Shown here piece by piece: positions 8,078-58,386 of a stretch of 64,000 nt of DNA. Both the position numbers and the translations under genes were made by a program. Below the pieces are notes generated by a model, which did no database searches, was not told the DNA's origin, and saw nothing but the letters and a program-made list of their open reading frames with translations. Source of the stretch: Eledone cirrhosa (taxonomy: Eukaryota); NCBI GenBank assembly GCA_964016885.1, contig OZ024754.1, positions 496,001 to 560,000 of the forward strand, given 5' to 3'. How positions within the stretch are numbered: position 1 is the first letter of the stretch; every line of letters starts with the position of its first letter.

Positions 8078-8113
<36 letters not shown>

Positions 8114-8116
<3 letters not shown>

Positions 8117-8292
8117 AAAGGCTTCTACAGGACTAGAACTGTTTCATTCGGGAAAACTCATCAGGGCTTCTTGATGATTTCTCCAAATGAAACAGTTCTA
8201 GTCCTGTAGAAGCCTTTTCTATATTAAATATTTATACTCTGCTTTGTATTGAGTACCTTACTGTGGTTACCTCCGATTCGACCCGGGATAAA
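8114..8292 (+). mobile_element. Hammerhead-bearing short element, family H1, with inverted duplication (Penelope-like pLTR fragment)
   Basis: + strand ggcttc-TTGATGA-tttctccaaat-GAAAC-ag..ct-GTA-gaagcc at 8165-8214; inverted copy at 8116-8164 has an intact CTGATGA; flanked by (TA)n; homologues at 57562 and 59177. Confidence 0.8.
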
Positions 8293-23921: not shown

Positions 23922-24299
23922 AATATTATAAAAAAAGAAGGAATAATAGACACAATATACCTATTTTTTCTTCGCCCCTCTGTAGCCTCTGTATCATATT
24001 AATATCCCCCTCCGCCTTCTGAGATATTCTTCACTGCTACAAGGGATTAATCCCCTTTCTTGACCGGTGTATCACGTGATAAAGTCTCCCTCCGCCTTTT
24101 TGAGATTTTCTCGCATGCTACGGACGTATGTAGTTAGGGCTCTTCCCCGAGGTGCTCCCTTGATAAGCTGGCTTACCTCACAACAATGTTACATATCTAT
24201 GATAAAACATTTTTGCATAGTGACCAGCGAAACTGTACAGTCGGGACGAAGAAAAAATAGGTATATTGTGTCTATTATTCCTTCTTATTTTATAATATT
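23922..24299 (+). mobile_element. Inverted-repeat element with a degenerate hammerhead (family H5)
   Basis: About 55-bp inverted arms; tccc-TTGATAA-gctgg..ccagc-GAAAC-tgtaca-GTC-ggga at 24156-24246. Confidence 0.7.
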
Positions 24300-24357: not shown

Positions 24358-24451
24358 GCAGAACACTGGAAGGTAATATCCGTGGTGGTAGAGCACTCAG
24401 TCCATGGGACGAGTTAGGTAGAAGTGGTAACTCAACAGTTAGTTCACCATA

Positions 24452-24492
24452 CCGAGAACAATTGTTTCACCTTATGCGGATCTTCAGCTCGG
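24452..24492 (-). ncRNA. Intact minimal type I hammerhead within a 24422-24617 inverted repeat (family H6)
   Basis: Minus strand reads ccgag-CTGAAGA-tccgcataaggt-GAAAC-aatt-GTT-ctcgg. The opposite arm (24547-24587) has CTAAAGA. Confidence 0.8.
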
Positions 24493-25293
24493 ACTGGTCA
24501 TGGTTATATGCAACAGGAAGAAGAACAACCGTATGTTCTGACCTGTCCGAGCTAAAGATCCACATAAGTTGAAACAATTGTTCTCGGAATGGTGAACTAA
24601 CTGTTGTGTTACTACTTTATATATATATATATAAAGTAGTAACCCTTTAATTACCAATCCGGCCAACACCAGTTCTGGTTCTATGGGATAAAATCACCCA
24701 TTTTAAAGGTTTCCAATTCAAATTAAAATCTTCCAACACAATTTTATATAAGAACCTACATTAAGTTACTATCTTAAGTAATAAAATAATAATTTTAGTA
24801 AATCCCTCAAAATTCTTCATTAATTGAGTGTATTTCCTTAGAAATGTGGTCATGAAAGAGTTAGGACTTATGTTGAGAACATTCTGTCTTAGTAACCAGA
24901 ATACAATATTTCTTATGATGCTGATGTTAGGTGTGAAGTTTGCTGAGTAAATGTACCCCCAGCTGTTAATAAAGAGCTGCTAGGACTGAATGAGGTAGTT
25001 AAAATCAGATTCTAGAATTGTTCGGGGGGGGGTCTCTTATCTCTGATAAAAATAAAAAAATAAAAAAACAACAAAACAACCCCCTCCCCCCAAGGTTTAA
25101 ATAAACATACTATAACACAGATACAGTTTACATAAGATAGCATGGAAGAAGTGATGCTAAACAAATGATGATTACGATAGCAGTATTGATGATGATGATG
25201 GTTTCCTTTTTCATACTGTAAGAGTCTGCCACTAATTCTCATATAAAACCTTCCTATATATATAAATATATATATTTCATTTTATATATATAT

Positions 25294-29742: not shown

Positions 29743-29870
29743 GTGATATGGCCATAACAAAAGGAAAGATTTACAGCACCTAGGTTTCCCAAGTGGTCAC
29801 CCATCGAAGTACTAACTAGACTTGACATTGTTTAACGTCGGTAATCGGATGAGCACAGGTGTTTCCAAAC
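29743..29870 (-). pseudogene. 5S rRNA pseudogene, circularly permuted
   Basis: Minus strand gives 5S nt ~18-120 (ctcatccgattaccgacgttaa..gttagtacttcgatgggtgaccacttgggaa..ggtgctgta), then a T-rich linker, then gttatggccatatcac (nt ~1-17). Confidence 0.85.
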
Positions 29871-30427
29871 CCTAAGCAAGATGGTTGGATAACATCCATG
29901 AGCTTGGTTGGTCTTGCTTGGGGGACCCAGTCAGATCAGTTGGAGATGGTTGCTTCTGACAGGACCCACTGGAAGGAGTGTTTGGGGATTCTGTGCCTCA
30001 TGATCCTCTCAAGAATAAGTGGGTGAAGAAGAAGAGACCTTGTTGGTTAGAGTGTACAACCCCCAATCATAAGGCTGTAGGTTTAATCCCTGGACTGGGT
30101 AGTGCATTGAGCCCCTCAGCAAGATATTTCATTTCACGTCACTTTTCATGATGCCCTGAATTTTGCAGTATTGCTTTTTATTGCATTTATATATATATAT
30201 ATATATATATACTGCTCATATATATATATTCAGACAAGACTGCATGTATACACGTTATGCTGGACATTCCTTCAAGAATTTTCACCATAGACTTTGTTGA
30301 CATGTATATATATATGTATATATATCCAAGGAGTGTAGCGTGGACTTACTGTAGGTTCACCCAGGTGAGCACTCAATGTCTAGGTTCACATCGGTGGCAA
30401 GGTGTAGAGCTAAACAGAGTGTAATAT

Positions 30428-30636
30428 AATAATACAAGGACGATTTGTTAAGCATTCATTACCTTTATTGATTGGTAACGTGCGTTTCGCTATTGATTAG
30501 CTCAAGGTTCGATCTGGCCCTACTCTGGAATCAACAGCAGAGGTCCAACAAGCTTTGATCGAACCTTGAGCTGATCAATAGCGAAACGCACGTCACCAAG
30601 GAATAAACGTAATGACGGCTTAACAAATCGTCCCTG

Positions 30637-30645
<9 letters not shown>
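30428..30645 (+). mobile_element. Inverted-repeat element with a degenerate hammerhead (family H7)
   Basis: About 87-bp arms; ggt-CCAACAA-gctttgatc..gatcaatagc-GAAAC-gcac-GTC-acc at 30542-30597; (ATT)n flank. Confidence 0.65.
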
Positions 30646-30668
<23 letters not shown>

Positions 30669-32920: not shown

Positions 32921-32921
<1 letters not shown>

Positions 32922-33110
32922 AACAAAGGAATTGTGGTAAGGAACCTGATGGACCATAACGCACCAGAGTACTCAATACTTAGGGTAGTAGAGTGGGAAA
33001 TAGGAAAAAATATGACCCCGACGGCAGAGCTCAAGCCGTTTCGACGGCTATTTCTGGACTGAAATAGCCGTTGAAACGGCTTGAGCTCTGTCGTCGGGGT
33101 CATACTTTTT

Positions 33111-33115
<5 letters not shown>
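32921..33115 (-). mobile_element. Fold-back element family H2 (hammerhead 3' half + tail) in (TA)n
   Basis: 55-bp arms around a 6-nt loop; GAAAC-ggc..gcc-GTC-ggggtc; relatives at 39955-40080 and 58240-58329. Confidence 0.75.
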
Positions 33116-33169
<54 letters not shown>

Positions 33170-34143
33170 CATGTCTCTCTATATATATAATTAATATAGC
33201 ATATGTCTATATATATATATAATTAATATATATATATATAATTAATATAGCAAGGTGCTCTTTCTTTTAGGAGGTTTGTGTTGATTTATAAATACGGGGA
33301 AAATTACTGAAGAATCCTGATCGGCCAATAAAACAAGTAAAATCTAGTTGCTAGTGTGTCATATTTGGGTTAAATCCGTGCTGAAGACTACTTGCATTGG
33401 AAGAGGAGGTTGAGGAGGGGGAGAGAGAGAGAGAATGTCAACAAAATGGTTCGCTTGTGTGAATGAATGTCAACGATACAATACTAAGGCAATGTTTTCT
33501 CCTCTCTCACCCGTGTGTGTGAGAGAGCATACATGTGTGTGTATGGTATGTTGGCATACATACATACACATACGTACGTCCATACAAATATACACATACG
33601 TACGTCCATACAAATATACACATACGTACGTCCATACATACACGCACACACACACACACATACGTACGTACGTCCATACAAATATACACATACGTACGCC
33701 CATACATATATACACACGTACATATACACATACACTTGTTCCTCCCTACTCTTTCATACTGTTGTGTCTTTACCCCTTCATCACCTCAGACCCCTATTTC
33801 TATCGATCTGTCCAATGTTTCTGGTTCTCTCCATCTAACTAACCATTTATCTATTGATCTACCTATCAACCTTTATTTATCGATCTACCTATCAACATTT
33901 ATCTATCGATCTACCTATCATTTGTCTATCTATCAACCTTTATCGATCTGTTTACGTCCAATTATCTTCCTTCATCTATTTAATCACCCAACCCTTAATC
34001 TCTCATTACATACAGACACACACTTGTTCATTATATATATATATATATACACACACAGACTTGTTTATATTTATATATGTGTACACACACACACATATAT
34101 ATATATGTACACACATATATATATATATATACACACACACATA

Positions 34144-34201
34144 TACAGGGTATCTCAAAATGTATACACACTTCAACAACATTCTAACAAAGGTGCGTAT
34201 A

Positions 34202-34275
<74 letters not shown>

Positions 34276-34290
34276 GTATATATATATATG

Positions 34291-34324
<34 letters not shown>

Positions 34325-34391
34325 TATACACACACTATACACACCTTTGTTAGAATGTTGTTGAAGTGTGTATACATTGTTTTGAGATACC

Positions 34392-34396
<5 letters not shown>
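34144..34396. mobile_element. Mariner-type MITE as a fold-back palindrome centred on a (TA)n array
   Basis: TA-cagggtatctcaaaa...ttttgagataccctg-TA with ~60-bp inverted arms. Confidence 0.8.
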
Positions 34397-34432
<36 letters not shown>

Positions 34433-34849
34433 AGTATGTTTGCCTTTGTCTATTATGATTCTATTTTACCATCTCTCCTCTTTATTTCTCATTTTCTCTC
34501 CTCCTCTCTCTCCCATACAACTCTCTCTCTCTCTCTCTCCCATACAACTCTCTCTATCTCTCAATTCATTCCTTCGTCACGCTTGTTTTATCTCTCTCTC
34601 TCTCTCTCTCTCCTACACCATCACTACAAACAGAACACCAGAAATACTCGAGGCAAATATATATATATATATAAAGATATATATATAGTATGTTATGTTA
34701 CCTCGCTTTAGTTATACATGTGTGTGTGTGTGTGTGTATGTATTAAACACAACTATACATGAATACACACATGTGGTATGCCACCAGTCTCCATCAGACT
34801 CTGCAGTCATGCATGTCGACTAAAAATATATACAACTACCATCGTTACC

Positions 34850-35245
34850 ACCACCACCATCATTTTAACCCTGCCATCACTAACAATGCTATCAACCACC
34901 ACCACCACCACCATCAATACGGCCATCATCATCATCATTTTAACCCTGCCATCACTAACAATGCTATCAACCACCACCACCACCACCACCATCAATACGG
35001 CCATCATCATCATCATTTTAACCCTGCCATCACTAACAATGCTATCAACCACCACCACCATCAATACGGCCATCATCATCATCATTTTAACCCTGCCATC
35101 ACTAACAATGCTATCAACCACCACCACCACCATCAATACGGCCATCATCATCATCATTTTAACCCTGCCATCACTAACAATGCTATCATCAACCACCACC
35201 ACCACCATCACAACTCTGCTATCAACAACCATCACTACTACTACT
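34850..35245. repeat. ~66-75-bp minisatellite with variable CAC run, 5 units
   Basis: cattttaaccctgccatcactaacaatgctatcaac(cac)n repeated. Confidence 0.9.
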
Positions 35246-35329
35246 ACTAATAGTGCCACCATACCATTCTATTGCCAATACCACTGCTTAATAACACCAT
35301 TTCTACAGCCAAACAAGGCAGCCTCCTCT

Positions 35330-35642
35330 ACATGGTCACTCGGCGTGCTAGAAACAACAGCTAAATCTCCTCCCAATCACACACTATCTTTAAATGAGGA
35401 AAAGACAGATAATATACTCCGCCTCTAAGGCAACCTTTATTAGCAACAATAACAAAGAAGCTTCTACATAGTTGCTAAACCTACTAGAAATAGCAGCCAA
35501 ATCCCCCCCCCCCTCCTATCTAAGATTAGAGTGGATAAGATCTTATTAGAGAGACGATTCATTTAGAAAAGACGAGATGTTCATAAATGGAAGGCTTTTG
35601 ATCATAATTTTGTTAGGTAAGGGTTGGCCTGGGGCTAAACAA
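35330..35642 (+). mobile_element. Unclassified interspersed repeat (relatives at 4305-4440, 44045-44290, 60520-60580, 61150-61330)
   Basis: Shared blocks cctgctagaaatagcagccaaatc and gatggtca.agctggaa.g. Confidence 0.5.
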
Positions 35643-35837
35643 TATTATAAATTCTTGCTACTACTACCACCACTAATGTTTCTACCACTAACACTACTAA
35701 CAACAATGACCACTACTAATACCACCACCACTACTAATATCACCAACACTACCTATATCACCAATATTATCACCACCACCAGCACCACCACAACTATTAC
35801 TACTACCATCACCACCACCACTATCACCAATACCACC

Positions 35838-36340
35838 ACCACCAGTACTGCCAACGATATCACCACCACCACTATCACCACCACCAACGATATCACCACC
35901 ACCACCACCACCAGTACTGCCAACGATATCACCACCACCACCACCACCAGTACTGCCAACGATATCACCACCACCACCACCACCAGTACTGCCAACGATA
36001 TCACCACCACCACCACCACCAGTACTGCCAACGATATCACCACCACCACCACCACCAGTACTGCCAACGATATCACCACCACCACCACCACCACCACCAC
36101 CACCACCAGTACTGCCAACGATATCACCACCACCACCACCACCACCACCAGTACTGCCAACGATATCACCACCACCACCACCACCACCACCAGTACTGCC
36201 AACGATATCACCACCACCACCACCACCACCAGTACTGCCAACGATATCACCACCACCACCACCACCAGTACTGCCAACGATATCACCACCACCACCACCA
36301 CCACCAGTACTGCCAACGATATCACCACCACCACCACCAG
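35838..36340. repeat. Minisatellite agtactgccaacgatat(cac)n
   Basis: Directly visible; the mucin-like ORF is a by-product. Confidence 0.9.
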
Positions 36341-36445
36341 TTCGACATTAGCTAATAGAACAAGTGACACTTGAAATATACAGCAGCTAATTCCCATGTT
36401 AGAATTACGTTCAATAGAGAGCTCTCACCTAGCTTACCTGCCTAC

Positions 36446-36901
36446 CTATATATACATATATACACATACATATATATATACACATACATATATATATACA
36501 CATACATATATATATACACATACATATATATGTACATACATACACATACATATATATGTACATACATACACACATATATATACATACCTACACACATATA
36601 TATACATACATACATACACACATATATATACATACATACACACACATATATATATATACATACACATATATATGTACATACATACACACATATATATACA
36701 TACATACACACATATATATATATATATATACATATATACATACACATATACACATATATACATACACATATACACATATATATATACATATATACATACA
36801 CATATACACATATATACATACACATATACACATATATATATACATATACATGCACATATATATACACATATATATATACATATACATGCACATATATATA
36901 T

Positions 36902-36932
<31 letters not shown>

Positions 36933-39440
36933 CATACATACATACACAAATATGTATATATATATACATACATACACAAATATATATATATATATACATA
37001 CATACACAAATATATATATATATATACATACATACATACACAAATATATATATATATATACATACATATACAAATATATATATATATATACATACATATA
37101 CAAATATATATATATATATACATACATATACAAATATATATATATATATACATACATACACAAATATATATATATATATACATACATACACAAATATATA
37201 TATATATATACATACATACACAAATATATATATATATATACATACATACACAAATATATATATATATATACATACATACACAAATATATATATATATATA
37301 CATACATATACAAATATATATATATATATACATACATATACAAATATATATATATATATACATACATACACAAATACATATATATATACATACACACACA
37401 TAAATATATATTGTACGTGTGTATGTGCGTGAGTGAATATATATATATAATATATATAAGCAATGACCACCACCACCACCACCACTACTACTACACAACG
37501 CCACCACTACTTCCTACTACTACCACGACCACTACCACCATCATCATCACCACTACTATCACCATCACCACCACCTACTACACCACTACCACACCACTAC
37601 CACCGCCTACTACACCACTACCACCACCTACTACCACTACTACAACCACCTACTACCACCTACTACACCACTACCACCACCTACTACACCACTACCACCA
37701 CCTACTACCACTACTACACCACTACCACCACCTACTACCACCTACTACACCACTACCACCACCTACTACACCACTACCACCACCTACTACCACTACTACA
37801 CCACTACCACCACCTACTACCACTACTACACCACTACCACCACCTACTACCACTACTACACCACTACCACCACCTACTACCACCTACTACACCACTACCA
37901 CCACCTACTACACCACTACCACCACCTACTACACCACTACCACCACCTACTACACCACTACCACCACCTACTACACCACTACCACCACCTATTACACCAC
38001 CTACTACCACCTACTACACCACTACTACACCACTACCACCACCTACTACACCACTACACCACCTACTACACCACTACACCACCTACTACCACCACCTACT
38101 ACCACCACCTACTACCACCACCTACTACCACCTACTACACCACTACCACCTACTACACCACTACACCACCTACTACCACCACCTACTACCACTACTACAC
38201 CACTACCACCACCTACTACCACCTACTACACCACTACACCACCTACTACCACCACCTACTACCACTACTACACCACTACCACCACCTACTACCACCTACT
38301 ACACCACTACACCACCTACTACCACCTACTACACCACTACACCACCTACTACCACCACCTACTACCACTACTACACCACTACACCACCTACTACCACCAC
38401 CTACTACCACTACTACACCACTACCACCACCTACTACCACCTACTACACCACTACACCACCTACTACCACCACCTACTACCACTACTACACCACTACCAC
38501 CACCTACTACCACCTACTACACCACTACCACCACCTACTACACCACTACCACCACCTACTACACCACTACCACCACCTATTACACCACCTACTACCACCT
38601 ACTACACCACTACTACCACCTACTACCACCACCTACTACACCACTACCACCACCTACTACCACCTACTACACCACTACCACCACCTACTACACCACTACC
38701 ACCACCTACTACACCACTACTACCACCTATTACACCACCTACTACCACCTACTACCACCTACTACACCACTACTACCACCTACTACACCACTACTACCAC
38801 CTACTACCACCACCTACTACCACCTACTACACCACTACCACCACCTACCACCACCTACTACACCACTACTACCACCTACTACACCACTACCACCACCTAC
38901 TACCACCACCTACTACCACTACTACACCACTACCACCACCTACTACCACTACCACCACCTACTACACCACTACCACCACCTACTACCACCTACTACACCA
39001 CTACCACCACCTACTACCACCACCTACTACCACTACTACACCACTACCACCACCTACTACCACTACCACCACCTACTACACCACTACCACCACCTACCAC
39101 CACCTACTACACCACTACTACCACCTACTACACCACTACCACCACCTACTACCACCACCTACTACCACTACTACACCACTACCACCACCTACTACCACTA
39201 CCACCACCTACTACACCACTACCACCACCTACTACCACCTACTACACCACTACACCACCTACTACCACCACCTACTACCACCTACTACACCACTACCACC
39301 ACCTACTACCACTACTACACCACTACCACCACCTACTACCACTACCACCACCTACTACCACTACCACCACCTACTACACCACTACCACCACCTACTACCA
39401 CCTACTACACCACTACACCACCTACTACCACTACTACACA
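36446..39440. repeat. (TA/CA)n array followed by a ~2-kb (CAC/TAC)n cryptic array
   Basis: Directly visible. Confidence 0.95.
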
Positions 39441-39682
39441 ACGCCATATGACTCTAGGGACCTAAACAAGGAAATAACAACACTGACCACAACCAATTCC
39501 GACATTTCCTTGCTTTTCTTTCTCATCGTGCCAGACTACATCACATTGATTTTCTCAGAGGAATTTAACAGATATCTGTGTTGAAAGACACACACAGGCA
39601 CACACACAGGCACACATACACACACACACACACACACAGGCACACATACACACAGACACACACACAGGCACACATACACACA

Positions 39683-39926
39683 TATTTATTGATGGCACTC
39701 CGTCGGTTACGACGACGAGTGTTCCAATTGATCCGATCAACGGAACAGCCTGGCTCTGAAATTAATGTGCAAGTGGCTGAGCATTCCACAGACACGCGTA
39801 CCTTTAACGTAGTTCTCAGGGAGATTCAGCGTGACACCAAATATGACAAGGTTGAACCTTTTATTACAAATACAACTCATTTTTGCCAGCTGAGCAAACT
39901 AGAGCAACGTGAAATAAAGTGTCCTT
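39683..39926 (-). mobile_element. CORE SINE, tail type iv (decayed copy at 41620-41815)
   Basis: CORE block gagcaacgtgaaataaagtgtc; gtggctgagcattccaca..ttctcagggagattc shared with 41620. Confidence 0.75.
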
Positions 39927-39954
39927 GATATATATATATATATATATATATATA

Positions 39955-39993
39955 GGTATGACCCCGACGGCAGAGCTCAAGCTGTTTCGACGG

Positions 39994-40032
<39 letters not shown>

Positions 40033-40080
40033 GCCGTCGAAACAGCTTGAGCTCTGCCGTCGGGGTCATACCTTTTCCTA
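39955..40080. mobile_element. Fold-back element family H2 with (TA)n in the loop
   Basis: Perfect 45-bp arms homologous to 33010-33105. Confidence 0.8.
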
Positions 40081-40129
40081 TATATATATATATTATATAT
40101 ATATATATACTATTTAGCCGCAGTAAATT

Positions 40130-40297
40130 GTAAGTCTTGTTAGTCTGGGATTTCGCCTGTTTCTCACAGGATCATCAAACATGACCCCGTGGTAAACAGA
40201 CGAAACTCCAGACTAACAAGACTTACTTAAAATGAATATTTAAACTCTATTTCGGTATTGAGTACTCTTTTCTCTTGGCCGTCAACTACATACGGGT
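40130..40297. mobile_element. Inverted-repeat element with a degenerate hammerhead (family H3; also 59833-59875)
   Basis: Minus strand gtcatgt-TTGATGA-tcctgtgagaaacaggc-GAAA-tcccagac-TA-acaagac; 59833 reads cttgt-CTAATGA-tcctgtgagtacaggt-GAAAC-tctag. Confidence 0.65.
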
Positions 40298-57424: not shown

Positions 57425-57464
<40 letters not shown>

Positions 57465-57561
57465 CATACACAGTCTCCCCCCAAAATGTATACATATATT
57501 TATTAGAATGATGTTGAAGTGTGTATACATTTTTGGGGAAAACCCTATATATATGTATATA

Positions 57562-57692
57562 TTTCCTGATGATTTCTTTCGAATGAAACAGTTCTAGTCC
57601 TGTAGAAGCCATTTCTGTATTAAATTTAATGCTTACACTCTACTAATGTATTGAGTACCTTATTGCGGTTACCTCGACCGAACCCCGGCCTC
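57562..57692 (+). ncRNA. Family H1 element with an intact hammerhead core
   Basis: tttc-CTGATGA-tttctttcgaat-GAAAC-ag-ttctagtc-ct-GTA-gaag. Confidence 0.8.
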
Positions 57693-57743: not shown

Positions 57744-57930
57744 AATTCCATCGGAAAAGTCCAGGAAAAAAGAGTGCTCTATGTATGCAACAGAGCTTAA
57801 TATTCAATAAACAAACCAGGATTTTTTCATTCTGAGGATCGAAAGCAAAACCTTTTGCTTTTAAGAAACCACTGGTAAATGGAATAATTGCCTTATGTTG
57901 TTTATTACATAATAATAATATATATATATA

Positions 57931-58185
57931 ATATAAGATCAAAAGATGGTTAAAAGAGTTCCAAGTATTTTATTATGTGCATTTCAAAAACATATCATCA
58001 TGAAGTTTTAAATCAACATATATTGATATGTTGATTTAAAACTTCACTATTCACAAGTGTTTTTTAACCTTCATATCATGTCTCCCTATTTTATCTGATG
58101 AGAACGCAGATATCATCCCATGATGATATGTTTTTGAAATGCACATAATAAAATACTTGGAACTCTTTTAACCATCTTTTGATCT

Positions 58186-58190
<5 letters not shown>
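57931..58190 (+). mobile_element. Family H4 element: 72-bp inverted arms, internal 21-bp hairpin, intact hammerhead at 58087-58155
   Basis: tattttat-CTGATGA-(long stem II)-GAAA-tgcaca-TA-ataaaata, with an 8-bp stem I. Confidence 0.8.
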
Positions 58191-58228
<38 letters not shown>

Positions 58229-58325
58229 CACATTCTGACTGCTCCTTATTACCCACTCTACTACCCATAATAGCGAGTACTCTGGTGCGTTATGGTCCAC
58301 CTGGTTCCTTACCACAACTCCTTCG

Positions 58326-58386
<61 letters not shown>

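What the first reader, a model, noticed from the sequence alone, without database searches (positions are those of the whole stretch)
32921..40080. Fold-back palindromes apparently primed from the ribozyme's own stem II
Seen: in family H2 (33000-33115 and 39955-40072) the palindrome centre is the hairpin gacggctatttc/gaaatagccgtc, placed exactly where stem II belongs, directly before GAAAC. The expected gacccc-CUGANGA half is replaced by the inverted 3' half. Both arms at 39955 share a private variant (gaaacAgc, versus gaaacGgc at 33073), so the arms were copied from each other within the locus. Inference: nascent cDNA snaps back on stem II and self-primes, which would be a concrete mechanism for the inverted pLTRs typical of PLE insertions.
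Basis: inference. Interest (0 to 1): 0.7.

Follow-up and report, generated by a model that had tools for sequence, protein, structure and literature searches.

The report
Twin-primed Penelope run-off palindromes
These mirror-image insertions are stumps of a very abundant Penelope-type jumping gene; in typical copies neither half was copied whole from the other, and both were likely copied separately from the capped start of the element's RNA onto the two ends of a cut in TA repeats, which would help explain the long-puzzling inverted ends of this class.

Summary
Both palindromes are real. They are end fragments of a Penelope-like retroelement (3.5-kb unit, RT plus C-terminal GIY-YIG, Hydra-clade motifs) with tens of thousands of arms in (TA)n.

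The central hairpin is not stem II. Intact copies carry a full hammerhead with core UUGANAA (U3-A8; 4,431 hits) and a longer stem II; the hairpin is the seam of the inversion.

Whole-arm snap-back fails. 49 of 54 pairs join an arm with a 79-bp tail to one without, either arm can reach further (25 vs 21 of 51), some arms barely overlap, and centres lie up to kilobases away.

Arm 5' ends crowd at -12 to -19. They peak at an initiator-like A about 30 nt below a TATA-like box, often with an extra G (85 G vs 15 A of 100), as expected if the RNA cap was copied.

Best reading: both target ends prime separate cDNAs at two fixed sites, these run off the transcript's 5' end and are joined; a short local fold-back may help. 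Copy 2 is atypical and may be a later fold-back on (TA)n. The architecture is published; the scan reached twin priming before on other DNA. No RNA data.

The parts
32921..33060 (-). Copy 1, tailed arm: element positions -18 to +121 (0 = G of GAAAC at 33042); 3' end joins (TA)n through TAT
32921..32999 (-). 79-bp one-sided tail (+43 to +121); in intact units it continues into the open reading frame
33055..33060 (-). 5' end of the tailed arm at the initiator-like A (-18, window 33060); the 6 nt form the apparent loop of the central hairpin
   Evidence: initiator reading is inference
33061..33115 (+). Copy 1, tail-less arm: positions -12 to +42; ends in CCTAT, joined to (TA)n
33062..33101 (+). 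3' half of a type I hammerhead (stem II 3' strand, GAAA, stem III, GUC cut site, stem I 3' strand); its 5' half is absent here. Mirror copy on the minus strand at 33014-33053
39954..39999 (-). Copy 2, left arm: positions -11 to +34, tail-less, ending 8 nt short of the usual +42 site
40000..40025 (.). (TA)13 tract at the centre of copy 2
40026..40081 (+). Copy 2, right arm: positions -13 to +42, tail-less; shares the +5 G>A and +33 C variants with the left arm

Best explanation
The palindromes are head-to-head end fragments of a Hydra-type Penelope-like retroelement, likely made anew at each site when both ends of a cut in (TA)n prime separate cDNAs on the element's RNA. One cDNA starts at +42 and the other at +121; both sites end in UAU, which matches the target. 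Both cDNAs likely run to the capped 5' end of the transcript at about -18 and are then joined end to end, often through a 1-nt match and sometimes with a short self-templated insert.

Shown: the parent element, the two fixed 3' ends, one tailed plus one tail-less arm, independent 5' ends, the hot spot and the extra G.

Inferred: cutting of both strands, priming at both ends, that -18 is the transcription start, that the extra G is the copied cap, and how the ends are joined.
For: Parent. RT and GIY-YIG lie upstream of the same ends; intact 784-codon frames in 3,531-bp tandem units, with the tail running into the frame.

Two fixed 3' ends. 49 of 54 head-to-head pairs are tailed plus tail-less. 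The tailed arm reaches further 5' in 25, the tail-less arm in 21, equal in 5 of 51. For the one junction type of copy 1, the shorter arm has the tail 409 times and lacks it 282 times genome-wide. In L057, L058, L071, L096 and L130 the tailed piece stops at +62 to +96 and does not overlap its partner. Centres lie up to about 2.5 kb inside the element, with unequal arms.

Same source. Arms share subfamily marks: 3.98 differences within a locus vs 5.16 between loci, 0 of 10,000 permutations as low.

Hot spot. 101 of 151 arms end at -12 to -19, mode -18 with 27. -18 is the A of TYAGTCC, about 30 nt below TATTTA(T/A). The base before -18 is G in 85 and A in 15 of the first 100 listed of 1,884 (counted by eye). 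Before -17 it is G in 18 of 100 (by eye).

Literature. A purified Penelope protein cuts and extends both strands and starts at two internal sites that bound the tail (PMC11167929). An untemplated 5' G is attributed to the cap in L1 and SVA (PMC3287187).
Against: No transcript data were tested, so the start site is inferred from DNA only. TATA and initiator consensus are recalled, apart from the rotifer pLTR passage.

The G test is not like for like: T and C could not be scored at -19 because they are parental or partner bases, and about a third of the G cases could be the partner arm's own last base.

Of 30 copies chosen for the element's body start, 23 run on past -150 into an upstream copy and only 1 stops near -20 (several belong to one array). 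Simple run-off from a monomer RNA does not predict this.

The most common junction (-18 joined to -12) and the recurrent GAAATAG insert (about 27 of 100 and 35 of 68 rows, by eye) fit a short snap-back. Copy 2 does not fit: it is the only tail-less/tail-less pair of 54. Target-site duplications cannot be read in (TA)n. The 5'-end calls are shortened by point mutations in a few arms.
Confidence: 0.72

Rival explanations
1. Whole-arm snap-back: one cDNA folds back on stem II and copies itself to make the second arm.
For: Centres crowd within the stem II region. Arms share subfamily variants. Self-priming was proposed for rotifer PLEs from palindromes at inverted junctions (PMC3846280).
Against: The hairpin is not in the template. 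The would-be copy carries a tail absent from its partner in about half of the loci. Some arm pairs do not overlap. Blunt -17/-17 and -18/-18 joins occur. Centres lie kilobases away in long copies.
Confidence: 0.04
2. Twin priming as in the best explanation, but the hot spot is a stall of the RT at RNA structure (stem II re-zipping) rather than the capped 5' end.
For: Ends fall just past the 3' strand of the real stem II. Ends are spread over -11 to -21, not one base. Most full-unit copies do not begin at -18.
Against: The mode is at the initiator-like A with an extra non-parental G. The RT passes the same structure in thousands of long arms and repeatedly within arrays.
Confidence: 0.15
3. The short palindrome is itself a mobilised non-autonomous unit (MITE-like or retro-copied as a whole).
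For: One junction recurs about 690 times. The outer ends are fixed.
Against: Junctions differ from locus to locus. The same junction occurs in both orientations to the tail and with several subfamily marks. The outer ends are not inverted repeats of each other because of the tail. A coding parent has the same ends.
Confidence: 0.05
4. For copy 2 only: a single tail-less arm was later duplicated in inverted form by a DNA-level fold-back in the self-complementary (TA)n tract.
For: Both arms are tail-less (1 of 54). The centre is (TA)13. The left arm ends at an unusual +34 on a CCT repeat. The arms share a CpG change that 0 of 14 other loci share.
Against: One shared case in 15 is what chance gives at about 6.5% per arm. 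Arms joined directly to (TA)n at their 5' ends also occur elsewhere.
Confidence: 0.45

Closest known systems
Hydra clade of C-terminal EN+ Penelope-like elements (Craig et al. 2021, PMC8557442; passages and section 11 read)
   Same: DKT motif, RW-basic motif, CxCX5C linker, no CCHH, CxxC and CxH around E and N, (TA)n targets, hammerhead in the pLTR, inverted 5'-truncated copy with one-sided tail.
   Different: Unit is 3.5 kb (generally under 3 kb there). RWR in place of RWK. Hammerhead core U3-A8 with a long stem II. Tail 79 bp rather than 30-40. No tree was built; the paper's supplements were not opened and may list this family.
PAc Poseidon element in vitro (Frangieh et al. 2024, PMC11167929; parts 1-2 of 4 read)
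   Same: Both strands cut and extended; two internal start sites bound the tail; the tail lies at the start of the reading frame; ribozyme cleavage is not needed.
   Different: The parts read do not explain inverted arms or their 5' ends, and assume a multi-copy mRNA. Here the start sites have a 3-nt match (UAU) to the target, whereas PAc starts without homology.
Inverted pLTR with tail in Adineta vaga Penelope elements (PMC3846280; passages read)
   Same: Head-to-head junctions, one-sided tail, TATA and initiator-like motifs in the pLTR.
   Different: That paper proposes self-priming on an antisense template; the arm geometry in this family argues against whole-arm self-priming.
U3-A8 hammerhead of Schistosoma Cercyon PLEs (Cervera and de la Pena 2014, PMC4209133; part 1 of 4 read)
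   Same: Compensated U3-A8 core, short helix I, long helix II, palindromic loop 3, pairs on opposite strands.
   Different: Here helix III has 5 pairs and helix II spans about 56 nt. Cleavage is untested.
L1 twin priming (Ostertag and Kazazian 2001; seen only as a reference line, content recalled)
   Same: Both target ends prime cDNA, giving an inverted 5' piece; the non-overlapping cases (L057, L071) look the same.
   Different: The second site is fixed, not chance annealing, and the arms usually overlap fully, giving a palindrome.

Membership tests
EN+ Penelope-like element | Single frame with RT and GIY-YIG endonuclease | tested here: met
   784-codon frame with RT motifs (YRDD) and C-terminal VIY..YIG read by eye. 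Pfam gave only a weak GIY-YIG hit, E 0.069, below its cut-off, and no RT hit.
EN+ Penelope-like element | Tandem or partial-tandem units forming pLTRs, inverted truncated copy, one-sided tail | tested here: met
EN+ Penelope-like element | Hammerhead motif in the pLTR | tested here: met
   4,431 hits with a U3-A8 core and variable N7; 95% of cells paired, no covariation among close copies.
Hydra clade | DKT, RWK, CxCX5C linker, no CCHH, CxxC and CxH motifs | tested here: met
   SDKTG, RWR (near), CNCPDRSIC, one Cys inside GIY-YIG, CNLC and CKH in the translation; read by eye.
Hydra clade | Insertion into (TA)n | tested here: met
Hydra clade | Placement in the Hydra clade by RT phylogeny | not tested
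   No reference Hydra sequences were fetched.
Active type I hammerhead ribozyme | Self-cleavage after GUC | not testable with these tools
   No excess of arms starting at the cut site: about 5 of 100 listed (303 total) at +23 vs 16 of 91 at +20 (by eye; patterns not identical). The window copies lack the 5' half.
TIR MITE | Terminal inverted repeats at both outer ends and a fixed internal structure | tested here: not met
   One end has a 79-bp tail; centres vary; the parent is a retroelement.
Stem II snap-back product | Central hairpin present in the template; second arm a subset of the first | tested here: not met

The most novel reading that the evidence does not exclude
The palindromes are stranded 'strong-stop' cDNAs. 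The Penelope RT starts near the 5' end of its capped RNA from both target ends and runs to the cap. It then normally jumps to the matching 3' pLTR, or onto a ribozyme-made circle, to copy the body again and again. One retrovirus-like transfer step would explain the inverted arm, the tail, partial tandems and arrays of identical units together.
Probability: 0.3. Interest if true: 0.72.

Novelty: new member of a known kind. Interest (0 to 1): 0.48.

Why it matters
How Penelope-like elements make inverted and tandem ends is called undefined in PMC8557442, and self-priming was the proposal in PMC3846280. This family offers tens of thousands of junctions that argue against whole-arm self-priming and for priming from both target ends. 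It gives base-level predictions (start sites +42 and +121, stop at -18 with a copied cap) and intact, near-identical coding units for a test in vitro. My searches of the held library (listings only) found no paper spelling out twin priming with run-off at the cap for PLEs; most subscription papers are not in that library.

Tried and rejected
Rfam scan: no hammerhead among the best 150 of 311 matches shown; hits over the palindromes were microRNA models below their cut-offs.

Repeat finder on the whole window: swamped by microsatellites.

CUGANGA searches: 0 hits with GACCCC, and 24 junction or chance hits without it.

Flip/flop loops as in parvovirus hairpins: explained by which arm reaches further.

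Searches used gaps that missed the main class and are not comparable with each other; they were redone.

Hot spot at the ribozyme cut site: not found.

Covariation for the hammerhead: none; the 10 copies are too alike.

RNA runs: no RNA holder listed; no reads were laid.

Long-arm comparison: the partner arm was as close as or closer than any other locus in 14 of 22; one of these pairs (L177) is two separate insertions. It does not tell one RNA from two.

Paper supplements were not opened.
Full report
1. Observation. Copy 1 (32921-33115) and copy 2 (39954-40081) are real palindromes. With G of GAAAC as 0, copy 1 is a minus-strand arm from -18 to +121 joined head to head to a plus-strand arm from -12 to +42; the extra 79 bp is a one-sided tail. 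Copy 2 has arms -11 to +34 and -13 to +42 around (TA)13. The genome is 3.0 Gb. One 31-mer has 10,999 exact matches and a sister subfamily pattern 23,800, with reversed controls 0.

2. Parent. Loci with long arms lead upstream into RT and GIY-YIG coding sequence. Intact units are 3,531-3,542 bp with a 784-codon frame, and the tail runs on into that frame. One insertion holds an inverted tailed arm, a partial unit, four units and a tail-less end; the three units compared are 99.97-100% alike, against 98.7% to another array. The protein has the motifs given for the Hydra clade, read by eye. Pfam was weak and no tree was built.

3. The ribozyme. No copy has GACCCC-NTGANGA within 38 nt. Intact pLTRs carry ACCCC-TTGANAA-G, then CGGCTATTT, about 33 nt, then AAATAGCCG-TC-GAAAC: a type I hammerhead with a U3-A8 core and variable N7, 4,431 hits. 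95% of cells pair but there is no covariation among 10 close copies. The U3-A8 core is known from Schistosoma PLEs (PMC4209133). So the right half of the central hairpin is the real stem II 3' strand, and the left half is only its inverted copy.

4. Test of snap-back. If the second arm were copied from the first, it could hold nothing the first lacks. I sampled the first 100 listed matches on contig C1, which gave 82 loci. 49 of 54 pairs, copy 2 included, are tailed plus tail-less. The tailed arm reaches further in 25, the tail-less arm in 21, equal in 5 of 51. For the junction type of copy 1, the shorter arm has the tail 409 times and lacks it 282 times (partners were not seen in these patterns). 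Five loci have non-overlapping arms, and long copies have centres kilobases inside the element. Arms share subfamily marks but mostly mutate separately: 40 shared vs 221 single differences. The gaaacAgc change is shared in 1 of 15 loci with a partner (8 more had none), namely copy 2, about what chance gives.

5. The hot spot. 101 of 151 arms end at -12 to -19, mode -18. That base is the A of TYAGTCC, about 30 nt below TATTTA(T/A). I read these as initiator and TATA box from recalled consensus; a rotifer pLTR has the same pair (PMC3846280). Where a purine precedes -18 it is G in 85 of 100; before -17, G is 18 of 100. Both were counted by eye and are not strictly like for like. An untemplated G is the mark of a copied cap in L1 and SVA (PMC3287187). 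There is no excess of starts at the ribozyme cut.

6. Mechanism. Inferred: the endonuclease cuts both strands of (TA)n, each end primes at a UAU site (+42 or +121) near the 5' end of the RNA, both cDNAs run to the cap, and the two are joined. A purified Penelope protein cuts and extends both strands and starts at two sites bounding the tail (PMC11167929). A short GAAATAG insert recurs after arms ending at -18 even when the partner reaches -17.

7. What does not fit. Of 30 copies containing the body start, 23 run on into an upstream copy and 1 stops near -20 (some share an array), while about 70 of the first 100 arms listed for that subfamily pattern are short (by eye). Long copies therefore need multimer RNA, a circle, or a jump from the cap to the 3' pLTR; I could not separate these. 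Copy 2 is atypical and may be a later fold-back on (TA)n. The start site has no RNA support here.

8. Standing. The architecture (inverted truncated copy, one-sided tail, hammerhead) is published. Earlier notes of this scan reached twin priming on other genomes and on other pieces of this one. I saw them after forming my reading; they are unchecked and are not counted as evidence. One gave the lead to PMC2377424, whose passages show a mapped internal Penelope promoter.

Papers seen: PMC11167929 parts 1-2 of 4; PMC8557442 passages and section 11; PMC4209133 part 1 of 4; passages of PMC3846280, PMC2377424, PMC3287187 and preprint 10.64898/2026.07.22.740005. No supplements were opened; those of PMC8557442 may list this family.

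Verdict: new member of a known kind, with useful mechanistic detail; interest 0.48.

Noticed in passing
window 58234-58332: A lone tail piece of the same family (about +28 to +121, plus strand) ending in (TA)n, beside another palindrome at 57918-58203.
   Followed up: partly
window 23922-24299: Another TA-flanked palindrome with a complete TTGATAAG...CGAAAC hammerhead-like motif at 24160: a second U3-A8 family with a long stem II.
   Followed up: no
window 40130-40226, 8097-8236, 24422-24617, 30422-30650: Further short palindromes of other families, some with hammerhead-like halves; two are followed by a tail sharing the motif GTATTGAGTAC with this family's tail.
   Followed up: no
window 29768-29892: Degenerate 5S rRNA copy on the minus strand, above the Rfam gathering score.
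   Followed up: no
window 34116-34424 and 57454-57562: TA-centred palindrome with about 60-bp arms (CAGGGTATCTC...), with a related copy elsewhere in the window.
   Followed up: no
G000:C1:437.198-437.214 Mb (L225, L226) and C1:91.47-91.49 Mb (L227, L228): Arrays of near-identical 3.5-kb units with intact frames; units differ by 0-2 bases within an array and by 1.3% between arrays.
   Followed up: partly
genome-wide: Many copies have one extra G right after the GUC cut site (more than half of the first 100 listed of 303). It may be slippage in the G run or a scar of cutting and re-joining.
   Followed up: no
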